A DNA stretch of 46,291 nt, the filler included, from Streblomastix strix (Eukaryota), in NCBI GenBank assembly GCA_008636045.1. It is 2 parts of 2 records of this genome, joined end to end, with 100 filler letters (N's around TTAATTAATTAA, not from the genome) between each part and the next. Parts side by side here need not be neighbours in the genome. Positions count along the whole stretch, not along the records: positions 1 to 23,118 come from SNRW01000299.1; 1 more part is not named here. One strand, given 5' to 3'. Shown here one piece after another: positions 1 through 46,291 of the stretch (positions within the stretch are counted from its first letter, which is position 1; each line of letters starts with the position of its first letter). Under the pieces are notes generated by a model. That model ran no database searches. It saw only the letters and a program-made list of their open reading frames with translations, and was not told the DNA's origin. A program made the translations under genes and the position numbers.

Positions 1-531
1 TATTATGTTTAATTAATAGATCCCTTATTTATTTACTTCCAAATGATGCTTCCCCATCTGATCTAATATTTGTAACGTACTCGGATTGAATTAGCGACTC
101 TAGAGCTGGGATTAGTGATCGTGTCTCTTTTGTTCGGGTTGGATAAATAATTAGGTACTTAGTGTTGACGTTGATAACAAAGAAGAACAGTAATTTGTTG
201 AAGAACCCTATATCAATTTCCCATGATCCTAATTGTGGAGAAAAGTTGGGCCTTTAATATTTTACCAACGGTTTCAATTTGTAATCTTTAATTTTTTCAT
301 GGGGTTAATATTAATATTGATTACTTTCATGTTATTTTACTTCTACTTTTATATAATTTTTGTATTGTATTCTTCTACATATAATTTATACCATTACTCT
401 ATACTTTTGCCTTAAAATTAATCTGATATTTTAATGTGTTTGTTAAACTAGTAATTAATGTTAGTGATAAAGTCCTTTATAGTTAACTTATTCGTTAACC
501 GATTTACCTTGTCAGTAATAAATTATTCCAT
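1..531 (-). pseudogene. Retroviral-like (rve) integrase, 3' part outside window, probable frameshift near 340
   Basis: Bases 301 to 1 read ...GSWEIDIGFFNKLLFFFVINVNTKYLIIYP...NIRSDGEASFGS, the first two Asp motifs of a DDE integrase. The upstream ATG at 531 is in a different frame, so the start is uncertain. Confidence 0.85.
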
Positions 532-625
532 TTAATTTAAATAAAAGGCGTTAGTCGAATTTCGGCCGACGAACAAATTGTGACGGTCAATTTCACCAAC
601 GGAATTACGTTGCTAGAACTTTACA

Positions 626-1448
626 TCAATTATATTATAGTTCTAATAGTAAATTATTATTCATTTCCATATATTATACAGGAACTTATCTACCAAAATT
701 ATCGAATAACTTAAATACAACTTCCTTATTCTACCCAATAACGTTTGTGTAAGATAGCATATTTTATCCCAATATTACTGGTGCATCAATTAAGTTCTAT
801 TTAAATACGTCATTACTAAATGAATTTTTATCCTACACCTTCATAGCTAGCCTTCTCTATTAATTGTTCACTGTTATTATTAACATCTGTGGATACTCCA
901 TGAAATTGACAATGAAAGGGCAAAATATAGGTAATGTTTAATGGTAGTCCTAAGTTTAATATTTCACTTTATAATTCCATGTTTCTAACTACATTTACTT
1001 TACACGATTGTTGTTCTCATATAGTTAATTACTATTGGTCAATTAAATATGTAAATTTTTTACTAAGTTCTATTTTTCCTAATTTATTTGGTAGTTCCAA
1101 CTTATCCCAATATAATTATTCTAATATCTCAGGTACAAATTATCCATAATCATTAGCGCGTTGTATACTAGTATAAATATAATCCCATTCATTAGCAAAT
1201 AGAGCTGATAAGGAAAATATTATTCTTATCGGATATGAATTAATTCAATTCGTTACTAATTATAAATTTGGCCCTTATACATTAATTGGTTATGTTTCAG
1301 CTAGTAATATTGATTCCCCATTAATCGTACATTATATTCCAAAATTATATCTAACACTAATGGACTTATTTTAGTCGTACATATGTGGTTCAACACTAGT
1401 TATAAAGTTATCTGTAGTAGGGTAATATAATCTAATTAACGCGATCAT
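626..1448 (-). pseudogene. Minor capsid (penton)-like protein, frameshifted
   Basis: The C-terminus ...PFIVNFMEYPQMLII...VVFKLFDNFGRQVPVQYMEMNNNLLLELQYN* resembles the Polinton penton C-terminal signature. ATG 1448 and the stop are in different frames. Confidence 0.65.
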
Positions 1449-1472
1449 TCGAAAGGCTACCTATAATTATTG

Positions 1473-1784
1473 TCAATAGATCCAGTAATGGTATAGAAAT
1501 GAATCAAGTTGTAAATTAATATAATTAATAACGGAAGAACAAATATCATCACCTATATTTTAGCCTAAGGTTTACTAATTTAATTATTTTTATGTATGCT
1601 CGTTTATGGCTGAATTAATGCTGATTGGTTCCCTATTAGTTGTATCAGGTAAACTAAAATATTATTCGGAATTATTGGCGAATTCTTTAAATTAATTATT
1701 CTTTAGGGCAATTACTTATGGGTTAAATTTATATCCCTAGTGTCCTTCTTAATTAACGTAATTATTATTAATATGAGTGTTCAT
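1473..1784 (-). CDS. Hypothetical viral protein, 103 aa
   Basis: ATG-to-TGA frame with TAR=Gln (MNTHINNNYVNQEGHQGYKF...HYWIY*), tightly packed between neighbours. Confidence 0.55.
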
Positions 1785-1790
1785 CTTAAT

Positions 1791-2057
1791 TCAGATTGGG
1801 GGAAGTTAATCAATAGCAGTTAATTTAAATTAATTATTCGATAATTATTCTTACACTATTACTTACTTATCTTCTGTAGATCTAATATTTAGGGTTATTT
1901 CAATGTAATCTTTGTTTAAATAGTACGTTAAGTTAATGTGAGCATTACAGATACTATTAACTTAAAATTAATTACTCCCCTAAGGGATAGTAGTTTACCA
2001 TTAAATAAATTCCTAATCTGTTGATGAAGAGAGTACTTTCATTCCTTATGCGGCCAT
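1791..2057 (-). CDS. Hypothetical viral protein, ~88 aa
   Basis: MAAQGMKVLSSSTDQEFIQW...IDQLPPI*. An alternative in-frame ATG lies at 2087. Confidence 0.5.
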
Positions 2058-2083
2058 TTATTTACAAAAATAATTTTTATCAA

Positions 2084-2677
2084 TCATAGTTACCATTACG
2101 CAATCTATCTATACTAATATTAATTTTTTACTCCATTAACATCCTAAGCACTTACAATTTCGTATTAACTATTACTTACTACTCTAGTATTTAACATTCT
2201 AAATTTTAAACCGTTGTGATAATAAATATTAAAATCCTGATCAAAACTATATCCTTCTAGATCGTGTCCTAGATATATATCTAAACGTTAACTTCCTTCT
2301 GGCAATTAATCAAAATACTAATAAGTTATTCCACGAAAATGGGATTTGTTCATTAAATTATCCCTATCACTAACCCAGCGTAAATTTTCAACATGATTAT
2401 CTGTTTTGATCTATGATTTATGATCAACAAATTAATAATTATTAGGATTAGGGATCCACTGTGTTGCTACAATTATATGTTTATAAACAAAACGGTGATA
2501 CTTTGGACCGAATTATAAATGTAACTTGATATAACTTTCTTCGCCATTTGTGTAGTGCGACAAGTGTTCTGCAACAATTCGCTAATTGTCACGCCTCCTG
2601 ATTTAATGAGGATAATTAACGTATATTTCGTATATATTGTTATATAACATTATTTCCCATTAATTATTATTTCCCAT
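2084..2677 (-). CDS. HNH endonuclease (NUMOD4/HNH_3, I-HmuI-like), 197 aa
   Basis: Uninterrupted frame containing YKHIIVATQWIPNPNNYQFVDHKSQIKTDNHVENLRWVSDRDNLMNK. Confidence 0.88.
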
Positions 2678-2773
2678 TTAAACAGTGGATAAAAAAATAA
2701 AAAAAATAAAAAAAATAAACGATTAATTTTACCAGACAGTTTTGGCTGGCTGAATTCCAGCTGGCCCCCCTTA

Positions 2774-3346
2774 TCAATAAATATCATATTAACTATATTA
2801 TTATTGCTGTTATTAGCGATAATATTATTGAGGTATTTATTCTTATTCTTCTTCACTTACTTCTTGTTTATTTTATACTTATTTTGGTTTCTATTTAACT
2901 CACTTCAACGCCTTTAATTTATTTTAATATTTCTCATTCTATTTGATTGCTTAAACGTGCTATTATTTTATAAATTTGTTCTCAGTTCGAAGTGAAATCA
3001 ATTCCTCTAAATCAAGTTGGGGATTAATATATTTAATTTGTGATTTGTTTTATACTTTCTTTTTAACAGGTTATGGTTTAATTTATTCCTATTATTCTTA
3101 TTCATCAAAATAATCACTTTCATTACTCGATTCTGAATCAAACAATTTCTGTTTTTATTTTTATGCAGTTCTTCTTGCTTACATCATTAATTTATTTTAT
3201 TAAACTTAAATAATTATTTTTAATCCTTTCTTACCATCTTCGAAACACTTAATTTGTTTCTTATCACGAATAAAATATCCACCATCAAAATATTCAATAT
3301 TTGTACCATTTCCCTTCATAAATTTATATGCTTGTGATTTGTCCAT
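2774..3346 (-). CDS. Hypothetical K/E/Q-rich viral protein, one internal TGA (2900-2902)
   Basis: MDKSQAYKFMKGNG...; the same frame and composition continue past the internal TGA to TGA 2774. Confidence 0.55.
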
Positions 3347-3377
3347 TAAATAATCAAGAAATCTTTATCGAATTTAA

Positions 3378-4082
3378 ATGATATGCGGAGTTGAAAGGAA
3401 TTTATTGCAGCTTTATAAAAGTAAAAAGTAAATGAAAGAACTGACTGACCCAAATAATTAATAAAGATTACAGTATATAGATAGTTTAATATCAGAAGCT
3501 ATTGAGAATGAAAATAACTAGCCCAACAATTAATCAAGTTAATCATAACGTTAGTTCAATAAAAACAAGTACACTGATGCTGATAGAACAACAGCTTAAG
3601 TAACCCCATAGGAAGTAATAGATAAATTAGTCCAGCCATCAATTTAGCCATCATTTTAGCCACTAGCCCAGCCAATAATTTAGCCATTAGTCCAACCGAT
3701 AATCATGGACAATCATTTAAACGCCTATTTGTCCCATCCTAATCTGGAGGGTATGAAGTTTGTAGTCGATTGTATATGGAGAACTGTTACACATAGAAAC
3801 AAAGGTGATGATTTCATTCTATCTTCTGATAATTTTATTAAATTTTGGTCTAGTAACATAGGAGAAGGAAGATGATATAGAAATTGTTTTAGAGGAAAGT
3901 ATTATTGCGACGCACTAATGCCTTAGTAAATAATATATAAAGAAGGAAATAGTTAGAGTTTTTGATGTACTGATAAAGAATTTTTCCATTAATACTACGG
4001 ATAATGTACTCTGGAATAGCGTGGAAAAATTATATAGAATCAATAAAGATCTAGTTAGATTAAGTTAAGTACCTGCAATTGA
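3378..4082 (+). CDS. Hypothetical viral protein with QPxx repeats, internal TGA at 3873 and 3963
   Basis: Single frame, ...LVQPSIQPSFQPLAQPIIQPLVQPII...; the TGAs sit in GEGR*YRNC and QSF*CTD. Confidence 0.55.
3628..3703 (+). repeat. Degenerate 12-bp coding tandem repeat (QPxx, about 6 units)
   Basis: (T/C)AGCCA recurs every 12 nt. Confidence 0.7.
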
Positions 4083-4132
4083 TCTTGACCCCACTGAGTT
4101 TTGAACATTAATTATTTTTGCAATTAATTTAA

Positions 4133-5178
4133 ATGGATGACCTTGAACTTCCTACCTAAGAACAATTATAAGCGATGAAAGAAGAACTAGATATAATAAA
4201 AGAAATCGATAATGAATAAAAATAATTCGAATTATTACGTGAGAAACTAACTCCCTACATTGAATAATAAATAATTAAGTATTTACTTATTTCAGTTAAT
4301 ATATTAGGAAAACGAGAGATATTGATTTATCAAATTTAATGACATTAGATATTAATCAAGCAGTAACAGGATTCAAATAATTTACACAATCAATATAAGC
4401 AGATAAATTTATCAAAATAATTGGAATAAATAACTAATTACTTCTAGGTAATGGTACTACTGCTGATGTAGATAAATTTTTTCCAAAACAGTATCCTCAT
4501 GCGATGGGTTAATTGATTATTGAACCGAGTGATACTATATTAGATTAGGGTATTAGGATAATGAAAAATAAAAATAATTGGGATAGTTTTGTTCTCACTG
4601 GCTGCAATATTGACCCTACGAATAGATATGGTGTAAGGAAAGTTGGTTCTACTTCATCATAATTTAGAATATAAAAATAAGAAGATTAAGCTTATGATTG
4701 TAAGGGCCTAATTATTGATTTCGATTGTTCATCACTTAAATTTAATAATTAAATTATATCCCCTCTACCTGATCCCCCTATTGATTATGCTACTTAATAT
4801 TCAATTGCTTATGGAATGTATGAACAACGTATATGGGGTACATTAACAAGATATAATGATAGAGTGTATATTTCTCTTCAAATAACACATTCTGATCTTA
4901 ATACATAAACGTATTCCGATTATACTATGTTTTCAATCAATAATAATGATATCAAACCTAAATTTACAGGAACAACTAGAAACATACCTATAAATGCAGT
5001 CTTGTTTGCGTAAAAAGTACTAGGTTATCCGATATATTGGAATGGTGCTATTCCTATTGATTGTTTTATTAACTCTAATGGTAATGTAATAATTAATACA
5101 TAGTGTTAAATTAATTTACCTGACGATTTTTGTGTATAGTTTTGCGATTCTAATGCCATACATAAATAATCAAGCTGA
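4133..5178 (+). pseudogene. Tail-fibre-like protein 1, frameshift near 4300
   Basis: LMTLDINQAVTGFKQFTQSIQADKFIKIIGINNQLLLGNG resembles phage fibre shaft motifs and is followed by a beta-rich head. ATG 4133 is out of frame with 4321-5178. Confidence 0.6.
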
Positions 5179-5208
5179 TTAAATTAAGCTAATTACAGCT
5201 CTTACTTC

Positions 5209-5269
5209 AGTCAGATAAAAAGCAGATTGCACCAACCTTTTATTTTTCAAAAATAATTTAAGTTTGACC
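5209..5269 (+). repeat. Dispersed ~60-bp viral intergenic motif, copy A
   Basis: AGTCAGATAAAAAGCAGATTGCACCAAC...TTTCAAAAATAATTTAAGTTTGACC. Confidence 0.85.
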
Positions 5270-5297
5270 TTTGGGCTAATTCAAGGGTTAATTTTAT

Positions 5298-6327
5298 TCA
5301 ATTTTATCTTTTAAATATATCGAAATTATTTAATGATTTGTTTATTATGATAAACTCGTATTTCTAAAGGTTGTTATAAATAATGATAAATTCCTATTCA
5401 TTCAATTCCTAAACATTATTTTCCTCATATATTTATTTCAAATCTTATTCTGATATGTTAGCCCCAACAGCAATAACATGGCTTAATACCCTCGTTGGTT
5501 TAAACAAATAGCTTGGCCTTTATGCGCAGAAGAATATGGTAATTTTGCTATGACGACTATCACTAACCAAATGTGTAGTTGATCTAGCTAGCTCACTAGT
5601 GTATTGTTAAATGTCCGTATTAGACTCAATATCATCAAATATCATTAATGTTGAAAGTAATGATGAATTAATTAATATAGGTATTTTTTTGAATTCGTAT
5701 TCACCATCTTGCTCTATTATTTTTAATTTTTTTGAATATTTAACCCCTTTAATTATCGGGGGAACATTGAATCGCATAATTGTTGTAGGCTAACTAAATT
5801 CGTTAATTATTTTTATACATTTCATTTGGAAAATATCCCGTAATCTATGTTGATTTTTATTTATCTGTTTTTTATTCTCCTCGTTCATCTTTTTATTAAT
5901 TATTTTTGACTATCGATTATTTCATTCTAGTTATATAATCTGAATCATATCTAATATCTCGTTCTTTTAACTTCCAATTCGTATAAATTTCTTTAACTTT
6001 ATATTTAATTTCTTCGAATTAAGGTAGAAAAGATTATGCTTCTGCGTAAGTTATATTAACTAACTTTATACCTTTATTATTTAAATTAATCGCCATTGTT
6101 TCATCTGGCCCAAAATTAGAGAAGTATAATATGTAGGGATTAATATATCGTTAATATAGTACAATTAATTTCGCCATTAAAGTTGTTTAACCACTTCCAA
6201 CCGATCCAACTATATAATGATTTGCGTTAATGAGAATGATAGAATGTGGGGCTAATGGCCTAATTTTATATTCCTCTAATAGTGATTAGTCGTTGAATGA
6301 TACTTAATTTATTTATTAGGTACTCAT
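5298..6327 (-). pseudogene. A32-like (FtsK-HerA) genome packaging ATPase, frameshifted
   Basis: Walker A YIVGSVGSGQTT (K to Q through AAA>TAA), Walker B TLMIFDD, and SDSRHSKITIFFCAQ (Arg finger and Gln sensor). Confidence 0.85.
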
Positions 6328-6710
6328 TTAAGTGAATATAAATGAATGTGATTAGTTTAATATAATTAGTTTTAAATTACTTATTTTATGGGATTAATTT
6401 TAAAGTATCGATTATCTCAATTAGTGTACCAATCTAATATATTTCGCTGATTAAACAATTATGGGGGTATCTGGACATAATATTAGTTCCTGTTAATATA
6501 ATTGTATATATAATTTAATTTTTCTGTGGTAGAAAGAAGATAAAATCAATTAACGAATCAACACTCAAATAATTTACCACCGAGTAATTGGAGTAATTAA
6601 TTAAGGAGGCAATCAAAAATAATGATATAAAATTAGCTAAAGAATATTGATATTAATTATATTTGAAGTTATTGAATAATTATCCCTGAATTAGCTATGA
6701 TTAATGTTCC

Positions 6711-6771
6711 AGTCAAACTTAAACTAATTTTGAAATTTTTTTCGTTGGTGCAATTTACCTTTTATCTGACC
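6711..6771 (-). repeat. Dispersed ~60-bp viral intergenic motif, copy B
   Basis: Reverse complement is GGTCAGATAAAAGGTAAATTGCACCAACG...TTTCAAAATTAGTTTAAGTTTGACT. Confidence 0.85.
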
Positions 6772-6990
6772 CAAATAATTGATGTAAAATGTTACCCTTG
6801 AAATTTCGTTGGACCCATTGATGTCGGCTCAAATTTGATACCAGCCCTTTATTTTTGTATACTTAAATGTAATAGATATAAGTGCTCACCAATTAATAGA
6901 GATCTGTTATTAGTTAATTAATTTCGACATAGATACAGTATTATTTGTAATATGTGAAAAATAAAAGTAGTAATTCAGGTGTAACATAAG

Positions 6991-8313
6991 ATGAAAATTA
7001 CCAACTATTTATAAATAATTAATCAGCATTGGTTTATGCCGATAAGTAGTGTATTTCTAATAGGAACAAGTACAGGAGCGCCATATATATAATTCTAAGT
7101 AACATGTAATACAAATGCTATGTAAACAATTGATTTGGTCCCTAACTATACCGTTAATGGAATCGTTGATTTATATGGTGTATTTACTGCATCATCTTAT
7201 GTATAACCAGCTTATAATATTTACTATGGAGTTGATTAGTTATTACATACTCATACTGGCTCTTACTCTTCAGCTGTTTATACAGAATGGATTCATGTGA
7301 TGACAGGTAGTGTGGTTATAACTGTTAATTTAAGTAATTAAAGCGAATTCTTTCCTTAACAAATTACTGAGATTCTAACGCAGGATATAGTTACCTCAAT
7401 TAGCGGTAGTTAAACATAGATACCAATGTCATATAATTTAGGTAATGGTGGAATAATAATTAATATGTTATAAGTTAATCCAACAGGTCGAAGTGCTAGT
7501 ACATATAATAATGGCATTAGAATCGGAAATTATAATAGTGAGTCATCATTATATTTAGGGTGTGCAACGACTGCTATAAATACTACTCAATCAGGTTAAT
7601 GGAAGATAAGTAAAACAAGTGATAATGCACTAACAATAAATCCTTCATCTTTACGGTAAGCTGACCATAGTGCTGGTCTAAGTATTAATAGTGATAGTTC
7701 AGTAATTAAATTTAATAGAAATGGATTAGTAGATGTTGGTATTGATTAAACAATCAATGGCAGAAAATCGTTCAAAAATAATCAATTTGAAATATAACTA
7801 ACTGAATCAAATTATCCATTAATTTTGTTCAATAATAACAATTATATAGAGTAATTATTAAATAGTAATGAAATGATATTAACTCTAAATACTAGTTATC
7901 CAGTTGGTATTCCATTATATATTAATTAACGGGAAAGTAATTTATGTTCATAATTTCCTGAATCTAAATTAGTTTAAAATTATGTTTTAAACACAGGTTC
8001 ATCAACTTCATTTGCAGGTGTTACTTCAGGTAATATTTAAATTTATCCTACAGCAACTAGTTATGATGATGGTTTGAGAATATCCAGATCTGATCCAGAT
8101 ACAGGTAACGCGACCATTTAATTAGGATGTAGTAGAACATCTAACACTGGTGCTATTGTAGGATAATGGTCAATATTTACTCCACCAAGTAGTTCTGAAA
8201 TTAATCCTTAAGGTTTTGCAATTGCAATATCATCTTAATCTGGCGATAATAATAGAGGATTACAAATCAGTACTGATGGAAACACATTAACTTTCAATGG
8301 TAGAGTACTTTGA
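6991..8313 (+). CDS. Tail-fibre-like protein 2, probably 5'-truncated
   Basis: ~440 codons, G/S/T/N-rich, with two internal modules (GIRI..LGC..GQW..GLxI..FN). Ends GLQISTDGNTLTFNGRVL*. Start uncertain. Confidence 0.65.
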
Positions 8314-8337
8314 AAAATAATATTTATTTTTATACAA

Positions 8338-8565
8338 ATGGATTAATTATTATAGATAGCGATCAAACTTGGATAAAAGATTAACGCGAACAATACCGAA
8401 ATGCATTATATTTATTAAGCTCTATTTGAACCAATAAAATATGAAGAAAGTGAAAATATAATTACTGAAGCAAACATAGAGGATGAAGGGGAATATATTG
8501 GAGATAAGAGTTAGGAAATAATAAATTATATAAATTACTTATCAATAATTACTTCGCATGAGTGA
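8338..8565 (+). CDS. Small acidic hypothetical viral protein, 75 aa
   Basis: MDQLLQIAIKLGQ...IITSHE*, directly after fibre gene 2. Confidence 0.5.
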
Positions 8566-8569
8566 AATA

Positions 8570-8999
8570 ATCAGATTTAATTTAATGAATAATAATTACT
8601 AAACTATTTATTTCCTACATCAGCAACAAAATTATTGTATATTTATTTTTCCTCATCATTTGTCTCTGTTAATATATACCGATTTAATTTTTTAGCTTGA
8701 GTACTTCTTAATTATTTATACTAATTATATTAACAAATACATTTATGATTATTTTAAGCGTAAATTTTATTAAGGTACTACTCTTGCTCTGCCTACTTAT
8801 TAAAAAATGTTAATTTTTATTATTGGTGGTCAAATTGTTATTTAATTTTTTTCAACTCATAGGATAATAATGGTTAATCTAATTAGGGCTACATTAAGTC
8901 CTTTAACTACTAAATTATTTCAGATATTAGATCTTAATATATATTATTTTTGGTTAATTGTTTGATTAATTATTTCAATTATATTATTAATGATTCCAT
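8570..8999 (-). pseudogene. Hypothetical coiled-coil viral protein, 3' end uncertain
   Basis: MESLIIQLKQLIKQLTKNNIYQDLISEIIQQLKDLM...; the frame degrades near 8660. Confidence 0.35.
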
Positions 9000-9025
9000 T
9001 TAATTAGTGTAAAAATAGTTTTGAA

Positions 9026-9220
9026 TCAATGATTAGTTAATTTTTTCGATTAATGTATATAATCAATTGGCTTTGGCTATAAATGTGTAGGCTTTATAAC
9101 AACAGCGTCACTTCTCAACTATGTTGAAGCTAACAATTTAGCTAAAGTATTAGGAACATAACCTGTTGCTTATTTTACACCACTTAATATTTTTGAACCA
9201 AAGTTCTTATTGGTTATCAT
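9026..9220 (-). CDS. Diverged paralogue of the pVI-like amphipathic peptide
   Basis: MITNKNFGSKILSGVKQA...; shares ~24 identical nt (9185-9208) with 9414-9437. Confidence 0.5.
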
Positions 9221-9254
9221 ATTTAAATATAAAAATAATTTATGGATTAATGTA

Positions 9255-9458
9255 TCATCGATTAAGGAATTTATTTGCCATTCCTGTTGCACCACCTACT
9301 CCTTTGGCTATCATACAAGCGGTTAAATTAATTACGCCTAATGGCCCTGAAACAGCACCCATAACTATATGAAGAACTGGAGCCACCCATTTAGCCGCAG
9401 AAGTTACCCCGTTTAATATTTTTGAACCAAAGTTCTTGAGACTTGACCAAAATCCTAT
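9255..9458 (-). pseudogene. Adenovirus protein VI-like amphipathic (membrane-lytic) peptide, start codon apparently ATG>ATA
   Basis: (M)GFWSSLKNFGSKILNGVTSAAKWVAPVL...GVGGATGMANKFLNR*; compare the adenovirus pVI helix WSGIKNFGST. Confidence 0.65.
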
Positions 9459-9491
9459 TTATATTAGTTTAAAATTTATTTCAATCAATAA

Positions 9492-11443
9492 ATGTCGTTC
9501 AGTGCTTCAGTTTATTTATCTCGTTTATCGTAAGCATCACATTCTGATTATGTTTCTTCATACTCTGCACTAAATGAAGTGCTAAGAACATTGACTATTG
9601 AACCTTAATCAATCGTACAATCTAGATAATAATTTTTTGATTAAGAAGTTAATACATTGTTTTCTAATGGTACTAAATAGACTCGTGCTCCATTAGGGGC
9701 TAGAGGTAGTGTTACTTGTTGCTGTGTTTAGACCTGTTAAGTTAATTGGACAATTACTATACCCGCTAATACTATAGAGATATAATTAAATAAAGTAATT
9801 GAGGCTAAGGGTATGTTATCTTATAACGAATATATGCGGGCTAGATCAAACTTTAATGGTTCTAAGACAGCTACAACTGCACTAGCCGATGAAATAAAAT
9901 AGGATACATAACATTATAATTGTAATGTAGTCATTAAATTTTGGTTAGGATTCTCTACAGCTTGTGGGCTATTCTAATAAATAGCAATTTGTCGTGATAA
10001 TACTAAATTATGGGAAACTTCTATTTACGCTAGAGAACAGGCTATAATATGTTCTAATTCGTTATTTGACCTTATCGTTAATAATAGTGTTACAGTTTCA
10101 CCATTATAGTGTATCGTTTAGTGTAAACGCCATTGCGGTGTGTTTATTGATATCCCATGTGATAATATTGATGCCAAAGGTGAAAATTTTTATTATCGAA
10201 TTCATGATCCTATTACATTTTCTAGGATATTAGATCTCAATTAATTGAACCCGATATTTAATGAATTCCCTGTTCTAACTAGAAACTACGCTTCATTATA
10301 TCCATAATTATGGATTACTGACCTCCTTCAAGATCTAAAAGTAGTTTGGTTAAATAAATCCCGTTATATTTACGATCAATATTTAGCTTACACTATGATT
10401 CTACCGAAGAAACCAGATATAATTACTTTACAAGATGATAGCGGAGATGTTAGCTATAATTACTATTCTGTTCGATTGATTAATTGTAAAGATTTGGATG
10501 ATGCAGCTACAGACCCAAAAAATAGTATTTAATAGCTTGACAACGCATTTTTCGAATATCTATCGATTCATAATTTATACTTCAACATGGAGAATAAAAT
10601 GGCGATAATTGATATGATTAGAGCTTAGAAAGTGATTTATTTTCCAACATAAGAACTTAAATCCTAGTCATCAAATTATCCAATAGCTCGATTTGAACCA
10701 ATTAGTGGGTAAATTTAGAGTATAATGTCCTTCTTTAACATCAAGGCTATGATTATGACCTTTGCTACGTAATAATATCCTACGTGGTTCTTTCCTATGT
10801 TATTCCACAACATGGACTTAATAATTGATTAACGACACGCTGTTCCTTCCTCTATGAAGCTCATACTTAAGCTACTAATGGTTCAATGTTTCAATGTTTC
10901 GTTTATCAGGATTTAGTTTCTCCCTCTAGTGATTTGTATCATTCACTTACTTTCAAGAACATTAATATAAATGATAAAAAGTATTGGTATGGTAAGAATG
11001 ATGGTCGTATACCCCTATAAGATAATATATTCTATAATACTTCTCTATTTACTGGTTCTAAATCAGTCAAAACGTATTATCCGAACAAATATATGCTGGC
11101 ATGGAAATTAGCTACAGATGATTCGTTCATAAGAGGATATAATAATACTAGAATAGGTGCGAGAACTAATATTCAAACTATATTAAATACTTAATTGATA
11201 ACAGGTATAGTGGATAATTACAAAATTGGCGATGATAATCTTATACCTGAAAATCAAAATACTTTAGCTGAATTTATGGGCACTAGAAGTTATCCCATGT
11301 GCTGGCAAACTGGATAGACCCCAATGTTACATTTCCTTTGTGACTCAATAATTAGAATTATGTTTGATGACAACCCTGAACAATAAGTATTAAATTTAGA
11401 AGTTATTGGAGAGATTGGTGGTAGTATGATCACAGCTGGTTGA
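9492..11443 (+). pseudogene. Major capsid protein (double jelly-roll), one frameshift near 10850
   Basis: ~650 codons, beta-rich, with KFWLGFSTACGLFQQIAICRDNTKLWETSIYAREQAII resembling parabasalid Maverick capsids. Start and stop are in different frames. Confidence 0.75.
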
Positions 11444-11495
11444 GAAGGCAGATTGCGCCAATCTTTTATTTTTCAAAATTATTTTTAGTTTGACC
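11438..11495 (+). repeat. Dispersed ~60-bp viral intergenic motif, copy C (overlaps capsid stop codon)
   Basis: GGTTGAGAAGGCAGATTGCGCCAATC...TTTCAAAATTATTTTTAGTTTGACC. Confidence 0.85.
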
Positions 11496-11989
11496 TAACA
11501 TTAATTATTACGCTAATACGGGGCTAATTTTAAGGGGCTAATTTTGATCCCTGAATTCGAATGTCAATATTTAGGCAGTCAAAAATAATAATATATAGTA
11601 TTTATGAAGTGGTGACCAATAAAATTACGATTATTCTATTTAAATTACACATTCATCGAAGCACTAGCGATAATAATCAGTTATCAGCATTAATCTATTA
11701 TTATTGCAATCTTATCGTTATTTTTCACTTGTTTCTATAATATTGTCGAATATTATTTTGAACTATTTATTTTATTAAAGAATTAATATTAATATTGATT
11801 TACCCTAATAAGGTATTAGATCTCCTCTATCGTAACTTAAATTACCAATTACATTATAATTTAGGTAATATTCGTTATAGGGACAACCTGATCCCGACAT
11901 TTATATACGATAAAAAAAGTTAATGGGGAAATTTAACCCTCTTGATTAATGTTTAAATTAGCCATGATTAGCGTAGTAATTAATGTTTC

Positions 11990-12050
11990 GGTCAAACTAA
12001 AATAATTTTGAAATTTATTTCGTTGGTGCAATCTGCCTTCTGAACTGACC
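11990..12050 (-). repeat. Dispersed ~60-bp viral intergenic motif, copy D
   Basis: Reverse complement is GGTCAGTTCAGAAGGCAGATTGCACCAACG...TTTCAAAATTATTTTAGTTTGACC. Confidence 0.85.
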
Positions 12051-12200
12051 TAAAATTAGTGTAAAATCGAACCGCCAATTTTCGATAGTCAAACTTTACA
12101 TATCTTACCTTCACAAGCATATTTTATTGCTGTCTCCCATATTGTTTTGAAGATAGAGTGCCAATTGATACCTAATTATTCTTTGATCAATTAAATTGTT

Positions 12201-15200
12201 TCATTCATCGGCATTTACTGTTGGCTAAAGATCAATATATTTTGTTGCTGATAATTTGTATATGAATGGTGCAGCTAATTAGCTCTGGGGTAATAGTATC
12301 ATTTTAGTGTGGATGCCAGTTAGATCATTTTTATTTAGGGATAATTTTGACATAATTCCATCTTTCTAATCTAAACGAGTATTTGTACACTTCATAATTT
12401 TTCCATCAATTGTATCTAATATATTTTATTTAGTTATCACATTTTATGACTAATTGATCCCTTTTAATTTAATTATTTCATTTTTGACGTTGATAAAATA
12501 ATTTTTGGTGGATAGTGCTATCATTATATCTCCTTCATTTTCAATCGCTAATCCTAATAACTTCTTTTATTCAATTAGATCGTCAGTTGTTGGAAAATAA
12601 TACTTAGCGTTCGTATCATAAAATTATTGATCAGTGATAATGTGGTTAAACCCCTGATTAATCGGTTAATTGATATTGCCCGCAACTGCGAAGTACATTG
12701 AATCTGAATCCCCTTCAATAAAATGAAACTTATTTTTATCTAAGCTCTTATACATAAAATTAAATATGAAATTAAGATACCAATACTTAGCACTATCTAG
12801 GGTAAAATATGCTTCCTATAATGGTGTTGTACATTTACATTTATCTGTATTATGTTAGACTGCGTATAAATTTTCTGTTAATTAACGTTCATTCATAAAA
12901 TTACCGGTTAAATATGAAATAATTGTGTCCGCTTTTGATCTTAATTTTACATTACTAAACTTCTCTGTATTCATCCCATTTGACCCATAGCTAGCGTTCA
13001 TAACTATTTTACAAAATTAATCTAGCCCCTTATTATTAGATCTAATCGCTTATATTCGCCTATTCATAAATATATTAACAAATATATTAAATTTATCGTA
13101 TTTGATAAATAAAATAAGTTAATTAATATCATCAATTACGAAATCACAGGTATCAATCAAGAACCATAAATAGTAAGAACAGAAGGACATAAATTAATTG
13201 TGAGTGGATAATAATTAAGTTAATTTTCTTTTTTCTTTATCTACCTTTATATTATTATTTTTCATAAAGTTATAGGTATAACTACCAATTGTTTGCTCGT
13301 TAGTAGTGTATGATAAATTTCTCAGGATAGGTGGAAAGTTAATGTGTTGATTAATATCAGATATATGTCCCTTAAGGGTAACGATAAATAATTAATCGGC
13401 CAGAGTATATCTAGTTGGGGAATTAATTATATTTAAACAACGTTATTTATTTTATTCATTAACATTGACCACCTCTTTTACTGTTCCTGCCATAAACAAT
13501 TTATGATTAGTGTACGGATTTAGATGGTGAAATTAACTGCTCATTACAGAAGGATATAATGAGTTAAATCCAGTCCTATAATATTAGTTACAATGTTATC
13601 TGTTTCAATTACTTTCACCTAATCTTCGTAAATTAATTTTTTTATTTTAGATTAGTTGGCAATATTTATTCGATTCATTACATTACTTAATCCACCTGTT
13701 ATCCCATCTCTAAGTGTTTGATATACTTATTAATTATTAGTTGCTGTAGGTAAATTATATTTTTAATAATAATTTTTTAATTATATCAAAAGCTTCATCT
13801 CTTGTTCGTTCCTATTACTTTTGACCTAGTTGCAATATAAACAGCACTATCTAACATAATTCTTAGTATGAGATAAGGAATTATTTATTCGATCTAATGT
13901 GAGCTTATTTTTAAATGAAAATTAATCGGAGCAAATATAACAAGGCTATCTAAATAATTTTTGGAAGTATTTATAGTCATTTTCTTTCATGTTATTATCA
14001 ATAGGTCGATGGGCTAACTTATCTTAGGACATATATCCTTCTACTTTAGCTTTCCAATATTAAGGTGTGAGATAGAATGGTGGATCAAACGTATTGATAC
14101 TATAATCGCCATCTAATTTAAATTCGTTATAGACCATAGAATACTTGACCGAATTAGCACAACTGGCCATCGAGATAAATTAAAACATATCTACTTTATA
14201 TTCAAAGAACAAAATAATTAAATTTTTTATCGGTTCAATCATTAACGACGTATTTAGTATATTATAATGTTTCAAATAATCCCATCTGTTATTGAATTAT
14301 TTGTAATCCTAGAGATAGGTTTAATATTCTTCATCTGTTATGGAACTATTTTTCAACGTGTTATTTAAATCAGATTAATTAAAGGGCGAGGTTTAACATA
14401 ATTATTTTTCATAGTCATCCTCCATTAGTTCGTATGGAAAGAGGCCCTTACTTTATTATTAGTTTGAGAAATTAAGTACAAATTAATTCAATGTCATTGG
14501 TGGTGCAACATATAAGAATGCGTCTAAAAATTTAAGTTTAACTGATAAATTATTGTCTGAAATAATTAACTATTTACAGAATTAAGAAATACCCAAATAT
14601 CTAGTTATTTTCCATTAGCTTGAGGATAGATATGGGAATAATAATGACATATCTAACTTAGCTGAATTATATCCAAGGATAGAAACTTCGATTGAATAGG
14701 GGATAAGTTCATCATCATAATTATTATCGTGTTTAATTTACACTGCTTCTTTAAATATTGTATCTAGCCATAAATTTACGAAGCTATTAGTTCGAATATC
14801 GAAATAAATTGATTTAGTACGTTTAGTTGAATAAATAGTGCTCGCAACAGATAGGGGGATTAATTTTTGATATTAATTTACTATCTTTACCGAAATTAGT
14901 ATTTATTTTTTATTCAAATGTTTCAAAATCATAAGTTATAAAGTATTAAGTTGGCTTAAATTCACTAGTTCTATTATGTGAGAGTAGATAGCGATATGTC
15001 TTATTTTACATGATATGCGGTACGAATGGACGTTGAATGTTATCCAACATAACTTATTTTTTAATTTAACCTTTATTTTGTCTACACTTTTCTATGTGTT
15101 TAACCATGTTCTCTTTAGTGTGTGAATCAACTTGAAAACAATGATTCTAGCAAATTGAGCAAAATAATAGTCCGGTAAGACGTTCTTTATTGGTCACTAG

Positions 15201-16400
15201 TAATGTGTGAATATTGATACCATTTAGTTCCTCAGATTAGATAAGTAATAAATTGATTTCGTTATCTCCTTCAATTGGAAAAGATTGGGCCAAATAATAG
15301 CGAAAAGAACTGTCGTCCTATTCAAAGGAAAATAAATTAACAGATAATTTAAAGTGTTTATGGATTAATTGTGTATCTGTTGCGCAATTGAATCCCTCAA
15401 ATGTTTTAGGATTAAATTTCCCATAAAAGAGAGTACCAATTTCCTTCATCTTATGTAGGACCTAATTATCGCTATATCTTTTTTCCTTACTATCTTTCAA
15501 CTAATATCTGGCAACTGCTTCAAGCACGCAAGTATTAGGATATGGGGAATTAACACATCTCAAACATTAATGTTTTTTGGATAAATGTAGCTTGATATTC
15601 GAAATTAATTTGCCACTGATTGGAAGTATATATGTTATTGCACTCATTGAATAAAGTGCTATATATTTTTCCTTTGTATTGGAAAATTTTCGCTCTTAAA
15701 TAGATATAATTAATGATTCAAAAATTTTTTATATAGTTCAATATCTTATTAATTACGTATTAATATTGGGGCTCTTCTTTCGGTCATTGATTCTCTAGGG
15801 ATAATATATTCTTATGTAATCCTTTCGTTATTATTTTTATTTCTATCTTTCCTCTCATATATGAACCCAAAATCAATGGCTAACTTATATATTTTATTAC
15901 CTATTGAAGCATGAATTGAATCGATGAAATCGTATATATTTAATACACTAGTTATTTAATTACTATAATGAGCTATTGTTATTAGGTTTCGTTCAACGTG
16001 ATTCTAATCTTAATAGTTAGATTTGGCATCATTGAGAACTTTAGTAAATTCTTCTAAATCTGCAGGATGAGCTAATAATAGTACCCCGTCATTAGCCAAC
16101 TTTAATAATTTACGTTAATGTGTTGTTTTAATTTGTTAATTAATTTTCTATAATTGAGGTTAGAATATTTACTATAATTTTGGTTCCAATTACTACTTTA
16201 TCTAGTTAAAATCAATTTTGGTTTATATTGGTTAACGTTGATAAAATTAGTTATCTAATCTAGCGTCAAGGTCAGTTAAAAATTAAGTTAAAATATTATA
16301 ATTGTTTCTTGATCCTTTACGTGGAAAATGATTTTTATCAAGTACCCGCTTTAATTATTACTTCAATTATTACTACGTTTTACTACTTTTTAATTACGGA
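12201..16400 (-). pseudogene. Protein-primed family B DNA polymerase with long N-terminal (terminal-protein) region, frameshifted; start approximate
   Basis: Exo motifs YDFET, ILGYNSAKLD and GLFPYE. Pol motifs LD(F)NSLYPSVM (frameshift inside), KIVMNASYGSNGMN and FIEGDSDSMYFAV. Confidence 0.92.
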
Positions 16401-16548
16401 GATATGATATAAAGTATATTTAATAATTAACCTTATGATAAGACCTTTTATAGTTATAAAAAAATATTTTTATTTTATCTAGGTAAGTTAAAGATAAATG
16501 AACTGGGTTCGCTATTTTCGTAGAGGCTTATTTTACAGGGTAAATTGG

Positions 16549-16610
16549 GGTCACGCTAGAAGGCAGATTGCACTTACCTTTAATTTTTCAAAATTAGTTA
16601 GGAGTTTGGG
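16549..16610 (+). repeat. Dispersed ~60-bp viral intergenic motif, copy E (subterminal, diverged)
   Basis: GGTCACGCTAGAAGGCAGATTGCACTTACC...TTTCAAAATTAGTTAGGAGTTTG. Confidence 0.7.
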
Positions 16611-16660
16611 GAAGAGCTAATTGCTACGCTAACTTCAGGTAGTTATTATTCAGAGAGAAA

Positions 16661-17071
16661 AGTAGTATAGTCACGGGAAAGTTGCTTCATTTAAAGTTAA
16701 ATTAATGGGCTAACTTATCCATTAAGGCCTTAAAAGCGTGCTAAAATAAAGGAAAAGAACTGATTCTTGATTAATTTGACCTTTATCTCCACATTATTCC
16801 TCTCTCTGCTTGGAGTTACGACAATAATACATTTCTCCCCATAAAATAACGTGAAATGGAGATAAAGATAAAATTAGCGGCGATTTTGGGTAAAACAATG
16901 GGAAAAACATTTCATAAAATAATTTACTACAGGAAATAAATAAAAACATAGGTCAAATTATTCAAGAATCAGTTCTTTTCCTTTATTTTAACACACTTTT
17001 GAGGCCTTAATGGATAAGTTAGCCCGTTAATTTAACTTTAAATGAAGCAACTTTCCCGAGACTATACAACT
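16661..17071. repeat. Large inverted repeat with ~120-bp arms (16661-16782 and 16950-17071) at the virus end
   Basis: Arms are reverse complements with roughly 7 mismatches. The spacer has a further CTTTATCTCCA/TGGAGATAAAG pair. Confidence 0.9.
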
Positions 17072-18035
17072 CAGGTTAGCACTTAACATCAAGTAATCAG
17101 CGAGAAACGGCTGCCGAAATAATGAGTTTGAGAGCTTTCACACAAGAAATATAGACTAACGTGACTCAGTACCTCAATCTACTGACAGATAATATGACTG
17201 TGATGTATTGCCTAAGAAAATGGAAAGCATGGAAACCCCTTTTTCATCTGGTTAGAATAATAGTATAAATATTCGAGGAGCTCAAGATAAGTTTAATAGT
17301 ATCTCACATCATTGGTCTGAACAATTCCCGAGCGGACTCTCTCAGTCGTCTAGCATGGTCCGGGGACTATATGTTGGATCCAATTATTAATCCGGAGGCT
17401 CTAAACACTTTCAAATTCTCTTCTACTTTGAATTGAATCTCTAATAGTACAAATAAACAATTGAAAAGGTATTGTTCCTTATCCTCGGATCACAACGCTA
17501 TAAAAGTTAATGCGTACACTATAAATTTGCGTCTAGAACCGGTCTTGATTCACCATCCGATTAATTAGATCCCGAAAGTTATCAACAAAATAACTAGAAA
17601 TCTTGCGAATGCCTTACTAATAATACCGGATTGGTGTAGGATTAGGTACTAACTATTAATAACAAATGTATCGAAGGAATTGAACCTAGGCCCATCACTT
17701 CAAGTACTTGTCCCAAGTAAGAGAATGCAGAACAACTATTTGTAGAAGTTACCTCCAGGAAACATCTTGGAACTACTAATGATAAGTCAGTGAACGGTGA
17801 AATTCTGTATGTCAATCTCCTGCATCTTGCTGGATTAACAGATGACGCTATTTTTCAGACTCTATGCACAATATCATTCGAAACTTGGAGGAAAAGAAGG
17901 ACAGCATTAACAAATTTAGTGGACTACATTGAAACAAATCTTATTGATATTGAACTATTACTAGGTGAATCTCCTGATATTCAAATTGTGAATGTACTCG
18001 TCAAATATTTAACCAATTTTTTGAACGACTACATT
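17072..18035 (+). mobile_element. DIRS-like tyrosine-recombinase retrotransposon fragment (RNase H, methyltransferase-like domain, start of next ORF)
   Basis: SSNQRETAA...LLTDNMTVMYCL...SHIIGLNNSRADSLSRL (RNase H), then RYCSL...LIHHPINQIPKVINKI...LIIPDW to TGA 17793. The overlapping ORF ...FETWRKRRTAL... is truncated. Confidence 0.85.
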
Positions 18036-20647: not shown

Positions 20648-21155
20648 TGCACAATTATTTCGCAAATATCTTAAAGAATAAAAATAATAAAATAAATAAT
20701 TATATTACAAGATGAAAATTATATTTATTTAATTTAGATATCAGATGCTCCCAAACAAGAATAATTGGAACAATCAATTACATATTTTTGAATATGTTTA
20801 AAATGTATATTTATCGGTGATTATATAAGTATTTATGTTTATTTATTTTTTTTAAATAAATTATAAGAAATAAAATTAAATTGAGTTTTTTTTTCTAAAC
20901 TCATTAGAATTAATCTATGATTTAGATTTAACTCTCAATCGATTAAAATTTTTGTTTGTTTGATAGAATCTCTCAAATAAATTCAAAACAACATATAATG
21001 AAAAAATTTATCTCTTAACTATATTCTTTTAAAAAAGTGAAAAATAAAATAATTTTATTTAGATGATTTGATTTTCTAATTGAAGAATTTGATTTTTATA
21101 CAAAATTTTAAATTAATGGGGTTTAATAAAATTTTTAACTATGCAATGTCAAATA

Positions 21156-22742: not shown

Positions 22743-23058
22743 TGAAATTTGAGGATTTTTTTGTTGCTAACAATCAATTTCCTTGCAAATAATAATCATT
22801 TATTATACAATTCAAGTATTAAACTATATTATATATACGTATTTATTAGATACATATGTCCGATCTCTCATCTTATAATATTAAAGGATCTTTGAATGGA
22901 TTAGGAACTGAAATTCTAAGTGAAGTAGCTCGTGAAATGATTGATATAAATAATCTTAAAAATGTATGAAAATTATATTTATTTAATTTAGATATCAGAT
23001 GCTCCCAAACAAGAATAATTGGAACAATCAATTACATTTTTTTGAATATGTTTAAAAT
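22743..23058 (+). pseudogene. Multi-exon gene fragment next to the assembly gap
   Basis: Short exons bounded by GT..AG, e.g. DLSSYNIKGSLNGLGTEILSEVAREMIDINNLKN|ISDAPKQEQLEQSITFFLNMFK. Confidence 0.35.
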
Positions 23059-23118
23059 GTATATATATTGTTGATAATTAATAAAAGAATATAATCAAAA
23101 TTGCATCATTGCTTGAAA

Positions 23119-23218
23119 NNNNNNNNNNNNNNNNNNNNNNNNNNNNNNNNNNNNNNNNNNNNTTAATTAATTAANNNNNNNNNNNNNNNNNNNNNNNNNN
23201 NNNNNNNNNNNNNNNNNN
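23119..23218. other. Artificial 100-nt contig linker (N run with TTAATTAATTAA)
   Basis: 44 N, TTAATTAATTAA (23163-23174), 44 N. The two sides need not be adjacent in the genome. Confidence 0.95.
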
Positions 23219-44900: not shown

Positions 44901-46183
44901 CACTATTTTTATGTGATATTGATGTTTTTGAAGATAAAATTGAACGAGATAGAGATTTATGAGATTAATTATTATTATTAAATTATTCTTATTCTTTAGG
45001 AGAAGATGATCTTGATTTTGATTGTGAATGAGATTATGATCGAGATATTGATTATTTATTATGAAGAGAAGTTGATGCAGTAGGAGATCTTGACCGAGGA
45101 AATTTAGATACTGACTATAATCTATCTTTATTTTATTATTCTTATTCTTATTGCAGTTTTACTGAAATTGAAGAAGAAGATTTTTAATTTTATTATTTAT
45201 TTAATTATTTATTACTTGACTCTTATTTAATATTGTTATTATTTTCAGATTATTCTTTTTCATCGTCATTCATCTCAATATATTCCTGTTTATTATTAAT
45301 ACTTTATTTCTTTATTGATTTACTTGATAATGATTATTAAATTGGATGAGGAGGTCGATTATTCTCTAATTAATTATTATTGTTGTCTTTTTAATATTAT
45401 TATGAAGAAGAAGAAGAAGAAGATACTAATGTTGTAGTTGATCGTACATTAAGTTTTTATTTAATTTATTTCTTTAAATCCTCTTTTTCTTTTTCTTCCC
45501 CTTTTACATTAATATTTTCTTTTTCTGACTAAATATCTTTCAAACTTTATTTATCTTTGAACTATTAGCTTTATTATGAAAGATTACGTGATAATGATTA
45601 TTATTTTTCATAACTTTCCTATTTTCTTATGTATTATTTTTCTATATATTACTAGTCTCTTTCTTTCAATCTTTCTAATAATTATCTTGATTATTCCCTA
45701 TCTTTCTATTATATCTCTTTATCTTTCTCAAATTCATATTTAAGTTATCTCTTTTTATCTTAATCAATTATATCAGTTTTTTAATTTTATTATTATTATG
45801 CTTATTCTTTTTCTTTCTCTTTTACTTAATCTCTCTATTTTGCTCTTTCATCCAAAATTGATTTTAATTTTTATTCTCTTAAATCTTTTGCCTTTTCTCT
45901 AAGATCTTTCTCTCTCTCTTTCTATCTTTCTCTTTCTTTATTTTTATTCATATCTATTTCTATCTATTTTTCTATTCTCTCTTTTTCCTTCTATTTTTCT
46001 ATTCTTTCTTTTTATTTCTATTTTTCTATTCTTTATTTATCTTTCTCCTATTTCTGTTTCATTTCCATCTCTTCTTATTCAATTCTTTCTTTTTCTTTCT
46101 CTTATTATCTGAGTTCTTTTTCTTTTTATCTTCTTTCTCTTAGTTTATCTGCAATTGTTTTCTTTTTCTATATTTCTTTCAAT
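41953..46183 (-). CDS. Large low-complexity protein (E/R/K coiled coil, then Q/S/P-rich), 5' end missing
   Basis: Long TAR=Gln frame ending ...RAKEIAIEDLVE*; no domain recognised. Confidence 0.75.
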
Positions 46184-46291
46184 ATAATAATTAATTAGAG
46201 AATAATCGTCCTCCTCTTCCCATTTAATAATCATTATCAAGTAAATCAATAAAGAAATAAAGTATTAATAATAAATAGGAATATATTGAGA
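45273..46291. repeat. Inverted duplication: 46184-46291 is the reverse complement of 45273-45380
   Basis: 108 nt with about 4 mismatches, running off the window end. Confidence 0.88.

What the first reader, a model, noticed from the sequence alone, without database searches (positions are those of the whole stretch)
1..17071. Endogenous Polinton-like virus adapted to the host's non-standard code, with a near-complete virion module
Seen: integrase, penton, ATPase, capsid, pPolB, HNH, two fibres and pVI-like peptides, all using TAA/TAG as Gln and almost invisible in the standard ORF track. Established: this gene set defines Polintons/adintovirus-like elements. Inference: it derives from a virion-forming virus of an anaerobic gut flagellate. 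This copy looks dead (frameshifts, Walker A K>Q). No maturation protease was seen in the visible part.
Basis: partly seen in the sequence, partly recalled or inferred. Interest (0 to 1): 0.75.

Follow-up and report, generated by a model that had tools for sequence, protein, structure and literature searches.

The report
Broken capsid-coding virus in recoded protist
A 17-kb, gene-broken copy of an integrating DNA virus, written in the unusual genetic code of its likely host (a termite-gut protist), carries a predicted capsid gene that likely belongs to a second, uncatalogued family in that host, plus a short peptide resembling the membrane-piercing helix of adenoviruses; code-matched viruses were already reported in this host, so it is a variant and not a new kind.

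Summary
Real, but the headline is published: Bellas et al. 2023 (PMC10120064) reported 820 code-6 capsid genes in Streblomastix strix, the species named on all 120 listed capsid homologues. An earlier scan note saw code-matched viral genes in another genome. Supported: TAA/TAG=Gln, family B polymerase, HNH, weak rve and ATPase matches, and a double-jelly-roll capsid (intact homologue, pLDDT 50; best fold hits all such capsids). Fibres are untested. 16661-17071 is a local arm-loop-arm with AGT ends, also in relatives, not half of a visible TIR pair. Possibly new: the capsid looks like a second family (0 of 61 members match DUF4106); the pVI-like peptide hits only adenovirus pVI in the PDB, below significance (E 0.19); a ~95-bp motif occurs five times. 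The copy is likely dead (nine frameshifts, three TGA stops). The left end is missing, so TSD and absence of a maturation protease are open.

The parts
1..531 (-). rve-type integrase, frameshifted near 300, cut by the window start
   Evidence: Pfam rve E 5e-4, below cut-off; frames
626..2057 (-). Penton (minor capsid) candidate, ~475 aa, three in-frame TGA stops, frameshift near 1056
   Evidence: Homologues colinear over both frames; fold failed; atlas lead Sputnik V18/19 at 0.87 for distant relative P0146
2084..2677 (-). HNH endonuclease
   Evidence: Pfam HNH_3 E 3.4e-7; PHROG HNH E 7e-12
2900..3346 (-). Charged ORF, unknown
   Evidence: no family
3378..4104 (+). ORF in two frames, unknown
   Evidence: only weak, low-complexity matches
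4133..5178 (+). Fibre-like ORF 1, frameshift near 4330; fibre role untested
   Evidence: Shares a repeat with ORF 2 (BLASTP E 0.002); no informative family match
5205..5300 (+). ~95-bp element motif, copy 1
5298..6327 (-). Packaging ATPase candidate, frameshift near 5830, Walker A Lys position is TAA
   Evidence: PHROG terminase large subunit E 5e-5; codons
6336..6650 (+). Small hydrophobic ORF, unknown
6680..6775 (-). Element motif, copy 2
6958..8313 (+). Fibre-like ORF 2, open under code 6; fibre role untested
   Evidence: no family match
8338..8565 (+). Small acidic ORF, unknown
8571..8999 (-). Coiled-coil-like ORF, unknown
9026..9220 (-). pVI-like peptide 1 (shares a short motif with peptide 2)
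   Evidence: hydrophobic moment 0.45
9255..9461 (-). pVI-like peptide 2, amphipathic N-terminal helix, no ATG at its start
   Evidence: 6 of 6 PDB hits at E<=10 are adenovirus pre-pVI, best E 0.19; moment 0.54; longer query gave none
9492..11443 (+). Major capsid protein, predicted double jelly-roll, frameshift near 10847
11432..11527 (+). Element motif, copy 3, directly after the capsid stop
11580..11900 (-). Possible small ORF between motif copies 3 and 4
   Evidence: no family; uncertain
11958..12053 (-). Element motif, copy 4
12089..12214 (-). 41-aa ORF after the polymerase
12201..16450 (-). Family B DNA polymerase, likely protein-primed, in four pieces (frameshifts near 13570, 14864, 15721): possible terminal-protein region, vOTU-like Cys/His (by eye), exonuclease, endonuclease VII-like insert, palm; start position uncertain
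   Evidence: PHROG DNA polymerase E 1.7e-6, endonuclease VII E 5e-6; motif B aligned to PolII at E 0.6; domain concept
16545..16645 (+). Element motif, copy 5
16661..16801 (+). Inner arm of terminal inverted unit, begins AGTAGT
16802..16930 (.). 129-nt loop; 85 nt shorter in two related contigs
16931..17071 (-). Outer arm, 89% complementary to the inner arm; right end of the element
   Evidence: depth falls to flank level beyond it

Best explanation
This is a gene-broken, likely dead, integrated copy of a Polinton-like DNA virus of a code-6 oxymonad (likely Streblomastix strix), and its predicted double-jelly-roll capsid likely belongs to a second family in that host. Shown: code-6 genes, a diverse multi-copy family, a polymerase, an HNH nuclease, an arm-loop-arm right end with Polinton-type AGT termini. 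Inferred working cycle of an intact member: host RNA polymerase II transcribes the integrated genome, with the five-copy motif acting as a DNA-level regulatory site between gene blocks; the polymerase copies the linear genome by protein priming after a vOTU-like domain releases the terminal protein; the ATPase packs it into a capsid-penton shell with fibres; the amphipathic peptide breaks the vacuole membrane on entry and, since its helix is already N-terminal, would need no adenain cleavage; the integrase inserts new copies. Using TAA/TAG for most Gln codons would confine the virus to hosts with this code.
For: Code. Family: 257 capsid homologues, all 120 listed named S. strix; 23 of these 120 are 620 aa or longer, 50-92% identical, with ~160 near-invariant columns and 16 of 21 inner branches strongly supported, which fits long selection on the capsid; 8238 related contigs at 90% identity or more in one run. 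Fold: all 5 PDB matches at E<=0.001 and all 30 rows shown are double-jelly-roll capsids or hexons; 3 of 3 BFVD matches at E<=0.001 are viral capsid-type proteins; the first 42 of 50 VIA rows are such capsids or D13. Second family: 0 of 61 members match DUF4106, which marks the Trichomonas capsid that seeded the published cluster holding all 820 S. strix capsids; six family accessions and three family motifs are absent from the stored part of that supplement. Linkage: penton homologue P0123 and capsid homologue P0099 have locus tags two apart on a contig of the same length. Decay: nine frameshifts, three TGA, Walker A TAA; 16 of 160 near-invariant capsid columns changed against 1 of 160 in P0002; arms 89% alike. 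AGT end motif as in Mavericks.
Against: The capsid model is weak (pLDDT 50, pTM 0.46; TM about 0.2; best Z 5.3, rmsd 4.2, 137 aligned, mostly one barrel) and is of a homologue. The penton model failed (pLDDT 34.5) and its atlas lead is under 0.9. Fibres have no informative family match. The pVI match is not significant, the 25-aa query was chosen after seeing the resemblance, and the 66-aa query gave only isocitrate lyases. Integrase and ATPase matches are weak. The published tables that list S. strix capsids (rest of S5, S6) were not visible, and by eye the published representative shares distant motifs with this family, so it may sit in the same loose cluster. Only 17-53% of depth at four frameshift sites shows the alternative indel. 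All sequence support comes from one sample that may be the window's source. No particle, transcript or activity was observed.
Confidence: 0.75

Rival explanations
1. The capsid family is already inside the published Metamonada cluster of 820 S. strix capsids, so the element is simply one more catalogued copy.
For: The published cluster is loose (25% identity over 30% length); by-eye motif similarity to the representative printed; UniRef already labels some homologues 'Major capsid protein'; supplement cut.
Against: 0 of 61 DUF4106 matches although published S. strix capsids are ~32% identical to Trichomonas ones over ~527 aa; ~650 aa against ~560 aa; none of the five published S. strix loci seen is among the 120 listed of 257 hits.
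Confidence: 0.3
2. The family is helper-dependent, like a virophage: it replicates only with a co-infecting giant virus, and the five-copy motif is a helper-type promoter or terminator.
For: Best PDB fold hit is the mavirus capsid and the penton lead is Sputnik V18/19; helper-like motifs are reported for virophages.
Against: Fold ranks are near ties; the motif has no consistent orientation to gene starts and no conserved RNA fold; no virophage-type protease seen; no helper looked for or known here.
Confidence: 0.25
3. The copy is not dead: the breaks are assembly errors from mixing many similar copies.
For: Bellas et al. mention erroneous stops in assembled multi-copy elements; thousands of similar contigs.
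Against: Several independent contigs match the window with no difference (tables 8); breaks come with many substitutions at invariant capsid columns and diverged arms.
Confidence: 0.15
4. 16661-17071 is a separate non-autonomous mini-element made of two Polinton ends, and the true right end of the large element lies elsewhere.
For: It has a left-type and a right-type end of its own; depth steps up sharply at 16661 (96 to 3203).
Against: The 6 bases flanking it differ, so no target duplication; contigs of relatives also have the motif tail just before the inner arm and an arm-loop-arm with a shorter loop.
Confidence: 0.2
5. A capsid-less transposon; the large ORF is not a capsid.
For: No Pfam, PHROG or PDB sequence match for the capsid; weak model.
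Against: Fold hits are uniformly double-jelly-roll capsids in two libraries.
Confidence: 0.04

Closest known systems
Metamonada-group endogenous viral elements of Streblomastix strix and Trichomonas vaginalis (Bellas et al. 2023, PMC10120064; passages and supplement rows seen)
   Same: Same likely host, same code 6, hundreds of copies, highly divergent capsid recognised only by structure.
   Different: Capsid ~650 aa without DUF4106 match, likely a sister family; peptides, motif and end structure are not described in the passages seen. A 2026 preprint (10.64898/2026.06.19.733378, passages) says Metamonada elements remain ungrouped.
Polintons/Mavericks/adintoviruses (PMC8097293, PMC8502044; passages)
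   Same: Family B polymerase, rve integrase, ATPase, capsid, AGT end motif, ~17 kb or more; polymerase N-terminal Cys/His as in vOTU (10.1101/2024.03.18.585575, passages); membrane-active accessory proteins are known there (PLA2X, GasderminX, cupiennin-like).
   Different: No adenain seen; capsid has no listed sequence relatives outside S. strix; penton candidate is long (475-600 aa); local arm-loop-arm end.
Adenovirus protein VI
   Same: A 12-15-residue stretch matches pre-pVI residues 40-54; this is the membrane-lytic helix (recalled).
   Different: Here a stand-alone ~66-aa peptide with the helix at its N-terminus; match below significance, convergence possible.
Virophages and PLVs with terminal palindromes in Halocafeteria (10.64898/2026.07.28.741278, passages)
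   Same: Palindrome at the element end; hairpin priming proposed.
   Different: There 52-nt palindromes, mainly in elements without pPolB; here 141-nt arms around a 129-nt loop in an element with a family B polymerase.

Membership tests
Polinton/Maverick | Family B DNA polymerase (protein-primed type) | tested here: met
   PHROG DNA polymerase E 1.7e-6; palm motifs visible; protein priming itself inferred
Polinton/Maverick | Retroviral-like (rve) integrase | tested here: met
   Pfam rve E 5e-4, below curated cut-off, truncated by window start
Polinton/Maverick | Double-jelly-roll major capsid protein | tested here: met
   Model of homologue P0002, pLDDT 50; weak scores, uniform hit class
Polinton/Maverick | Single-jelly-roll penton | tested here: inconclusive
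   Model pLDDT 34.5, no fold match; atlas lead 0.87
Polinton/Maverick | A32/FtsK-like packaging ATPase | tested here: inconclusive
   Walker motifs by eye; PHROG terminase E 5e-5, AAA_22 E 0.11; no A32 profile hit
Polinton/Maverick | Adenain/Ulp1 maturation protease | tested here: inconclusive
   No protease family hit in the ORFs scanned; left end of the element missing
Polinton/Maverick | AGT/ACT end motif | tested here: met
   Both arms begin AGT(A/T)GT; motif from PMC8097293; right end only
Polinton/Maverick | TIR pair at both ends and 6-bp target duplication | not testable with these tools
   Element runs off the window start; no genome held; contigs too short
Metamonada MCP cluster of Bellas 2023 (DUF4106 type) | Capsid matches DUF4106 / Trichomonas capsid | tested here: not met
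   0 of 61 members at E<=0.05
Metamonada MCP cluster of Bellas 2023 (DUF4106 type) | Listed among the 820 S. strix capsids | tested here: inconclusive
   6 accessions and 3 motifs absent from stored text, but Table S5 is cut and S6 not held
Metamonada MCP cluster of Bellas 2023 (DUF4106 type) | Uses translation table 6 like the host | tested here: met
   flanking host ORFs also open under table 6
Virophages (mavirus-like) | Virophage-type capsid plus cysteine protease | tested here: inconclusive
   Mavirus capsid is the top Foldseek hit (E 1.5e-4, TM 0.2) but not the top VIA row; no protease seen; no tree
Adenovirus protein VI | Homology beyond the amphipathic helix (NLS, C-terminal protease cofactor) | tested here: inconclusive
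   Only the helix matches, E 0.19; whole peptide gives no pVI hit

The most novel reading that the evidence does not exclude
An unreported lineage of metamonad polintoviruses that has dispensed with the maturation protease: it makes the adenovirus protein VI membrane-lytic helix as a ready, stand-alone peptide, and ends in a 410-bp fold-back whose 3' end can prime replication. It would be a protist source for the adenovirus entry peptide and a second, code-locked virus family in oxymonads.
Probability: 0.15. Interest if true: 0.75.

Novelty: new variant of a known kind. Interest (0 to 1): 0.45.

Why it matters
Metamonad Polinton-like viruses are still unplaced in virus classification, and standard-code searches miss recoded ones. 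A second capsid family in S. strix would raise the viral share of that genome above the published estimate (about 11%) and give gene-level anatomy for the group. If the pVI-like peptide is conserved and lytic, it bears on how protist polintons enter cells and on where adenovirus protein VI came from. The code match itself is already published.

Tried and rejected
No whole genome held, so no left end, TSD or copy census. No relatives found by pattern scan: capsid in viral and metagenome contigs, polymerase and P0146 in viral contigs, motif in metagenome contigs; these exact-pattern scans miss diverged or recoded sequences. No RNA holder listed, which says nothing on expression. Both penton word searches were limited to 128-408 and 138-440 aa and could not return a full-length copy; the profile search returned 29 proteins, one full-length (P0146) and one repeat-like chance hit (P0150) left out of alignments. 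The penton alignment used 14 of those proteins; C-terminal fragments misaligned and were dropped. Penton model failed; its fold search is meaningless. A second atlas query on part of P0146 did not complete. Motif as RNA hairpin terminator: rejected (z -0.83 to 0.61, no covariation). Motif as recombination site: joints at motif copies are explained by the motif being repeated, so not taken as rearrangement. Programmed frameshift in the penton: disfavoured, homologues P0125 and P0151 read through. Amplification chimera for the end unit: disfavoured, arms differ at 11%. vOTU, penton C-terminus and capsid profile had no meaningful PDB sequence match. No polymerase tree and no tree with outside capsids were built: no outside homologues were obtained. 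Literature searches; only PMC10120064 held both Streblomastix and Polinton. Subscription papers and bioRxiv supplements are not covered.
Full report
OBSERVATION. Under table 11 no stop-free frame of 100 aa or more lies in 1-17071. Under table 6 the region fills with long frames. In 14 hand-picked gene segments, 235 of 282 Gln codons are TAA/TAG and 2 of 3759 codons are TGA (frames were chosen for fewest TGA, so the second figure is biased low). In the capsid gene 23 of 32 TAA/TAG sites face Gln as the majority residue of homologues, against 2 of 84 Lys, Glu and Tyr codon sites. The homologues are presumably code-6 translations, so this shows conserved in-frame use, not independent decoding. 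Flanking host ORFs also open under table 6.

HOST AND PRIOR ART. The capsid search gave 257 homologues; all 120 listed are named Streblomastix strix. Bellas et al. 2023 (PMC10120064; passages; supplement rows) already report endogenous viral elements in this species that use the host's table, with 820 capsid genes, all in one cluster seeded by the Trichomonas DUF4106 capsid.

CAPSID. 9492-11443 is one gene with a frameshift near 10847; the pieces are 72% and 81% identical to the intact 652-aa P0002. A model of P0002 from 61 homologues is weak (pLDDT 50, pTM 0.46). Still, all 5 PDB matches at E<=0.001 and all 30 rows shown are double-jelly-roll capsids or hexons, led by mavirus. The 3 BFVD matches at E<=0.001 are adomavirus LO7 and two giant-virus capsids. 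The first 42 of 50 VIA rows are such capsids or D13 (best Z 5.3, rmsd 4.2, 137 aligned; a second look, mostly one barrel). Among the 23 of 120 homologues of 620 aa or more, identity is 50-92% and about 160 columns are near-invariant, which fits long selection on a capsid.

SECOND FAMILY? None of 61 members matches DUF4106, while published S. strix capsids are ~32% identical to Trichomonas ones. Six accessions and three motifs of this family are absent from the stored supplement, but Table S5 is cut and S6 is not held. By eye the published representative shares distant motifs with P0002. I put about 65-70% on a distinct sister family. A 2026 preprint says Metamonada elements remain ungrouped (passages).

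PENTON. The gene runs 2057 to 626, with three TGA stops and a frameshift near 1056. A profile search found 29 proteins; 8 of the 10 looked up are S. strix fragments, one is a repeat-like chance hit, and one is a full-length 597-aa unnamed relative, P0146, colinear with the N-terminal part (hhalign 96.5%) and weakly with the C-terminus. Its model failed (pLDDT 34.5). The atlas gave Sputnik minor capsid V18/19 clusters at 0.87 and 0.85, ranks 5 and 26, a lead only. Penton is likely by gene set and pattern, not shown.

OTHER GENES. HNH is solid. The polymerase is in four pieces with an endonuclease VII-like insert. Its N-terminal part has a Cys and a His placed as in the vOTU protease of polinton polymerases (concept; by eye; no PDB match). 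The integrase match is below cut-off and cut by the window start. The ATPase has Walker motifs by eye and a terminase profile hit at E 5e-5; its Walker A Lys position is TAA. The two fibre-like ORFs share a repeat but match no informative family. Fibres are common in PLVs (passages).

PEPTIDES. A 25-aa query from peptide 2 returned 6 PDB sequences at E<=10 out of 177,635, all adenovirus pre-protein VI, at residues 40-54 of the precursor and 7-21 of the mature chain (best E 0.19). I chose that query after recalling the resemblance, and the 66-aa query returned only isocitrate lyases. The helix is amphipathic (moment 0.54; 15 of 2035 background windows reach 0.50). It stands at the N-terminus, so it would need no maturation cleavage. 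That is inference. Other membrane-active accessory proteins are known in adintoviruses (passages); my searches showed no pVI-like peptide in a protist polinton.

ENDS AND MOTIF. 16661-16801 and 16931-17071 are 89% complementary arms around a 129-nt loop; both begin AGT(A/T)GT, the Maverick end motif. Related contigs show the same unit with a loop 85 nt shorter, and the motif tail before the inner arm, so it is likely the family's end structure. Depth falls to flank level past 17071. Terminal palindromes with proposed hairpin priming have a precedent. A ~95-bp motif occurs five times, only inside the element (5 matches, 0.98 expected, pattern taken from the repeat). Three copies follow gene ends in sense. 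It has no conserved RNA fold, so a DNA-level regulatory site is my best guess.

STATE OF THE COPY. Nine frameshifts (integrase, penton, 3378 ORF, fibre 1, ATPase, capsid, three in the polymerase), three TGA stops, no ATG on peptide 2, and 16 of 160 near-invariant capsid columns changed against 1 of 160 in P0002, second worst of 24 rows. Related contigs differ by one base at four frameshift sites, in 17-53% of depth (12 of 33 indel rows shown). Summed depth over the element is 890-13,351 against 46 in the flank bin; the tool warns this is no copy number, and the three runs are one sample, possibly the source.

MECHANISM AND VERDICT. Best reading: a decayed provirus of a nuclear, integrating, virion-forming Polinton-like virus confined by its code to oxymonad hosts. 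Shown are code, gene set, family size and end structure. Predicted are the capsid fold and polymerase domains. Inferred are virions, entry by the peptide, protein priming and the motif's role. It works like a Polinton. Formal membership is incomplete, since protease, TIR pair and TSD could not be tested. New variant of a known kind; interest 0.45.

Noticed in passing
window 17072-17775 (+): The right flank reads like an RNase H followed by a Dam-methylase region of a DIRS-type retroelement, starting abruptly at the element's end (recalled motifs; no Pfam, PHROG or NCBIfam support). The virus likely inserted into it.
   Followed up: partly
window 23119-23218: Two runs of 44 N around a 12-base spacer, a scaffold joint. 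The element lies on the 23,118 bases before it and runs off their start.
   Followed up: partly
P0146: Full-length 597-aa relative of the penton candidate from an unnamed source, 17 Gln in 597 residues; suggests related viruses in another host, perhaps with the standard code.
   Followed up: partly
P0121, P0123-P0151: None of the penton-family fragments named S. strix is full length, whereas 23 of 120 capsid homologues are 620 aa or longer; gene calling or preferential decay could explain it.
   Followed up: no
window 629-1057 and 1250-1530 (-): The two halves of the penton candidate share a short pattern, enough to mis-align them; possible internal duplication.
   Followed up: no
window 6769 and 9025: A related contig joins the motif directly to the end of peptide 1 (depth 504, 30 letters on the short side); fibre-like ORF 2 and two small ORFs may be a variable block.
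   Followed up: partly
P0033: A gene model fusing capsid and HNH pieces, so in another copy an HNH gene likely lies next to the capsid gene; gene order varies in the family.
   Followed up: no
window 27913-32084 (-): Host gene in pieces for a surface protein with beta-helix-like repeats, one transmembrane segment and a long Ser/Lys/Asp tail (by eye).
   Followed up: no
window 20681-20824 and 22935-23078: 144-nt direct repeat, 88% identical, 2254 bases apart.
   Followed up: no
window 45273-45380 and 46184-46291: 108-nt inverted repeat, 96% complementary, at the window's end inside a long ORF; possibly an assembly or amplification artefact.
   Followed up: no
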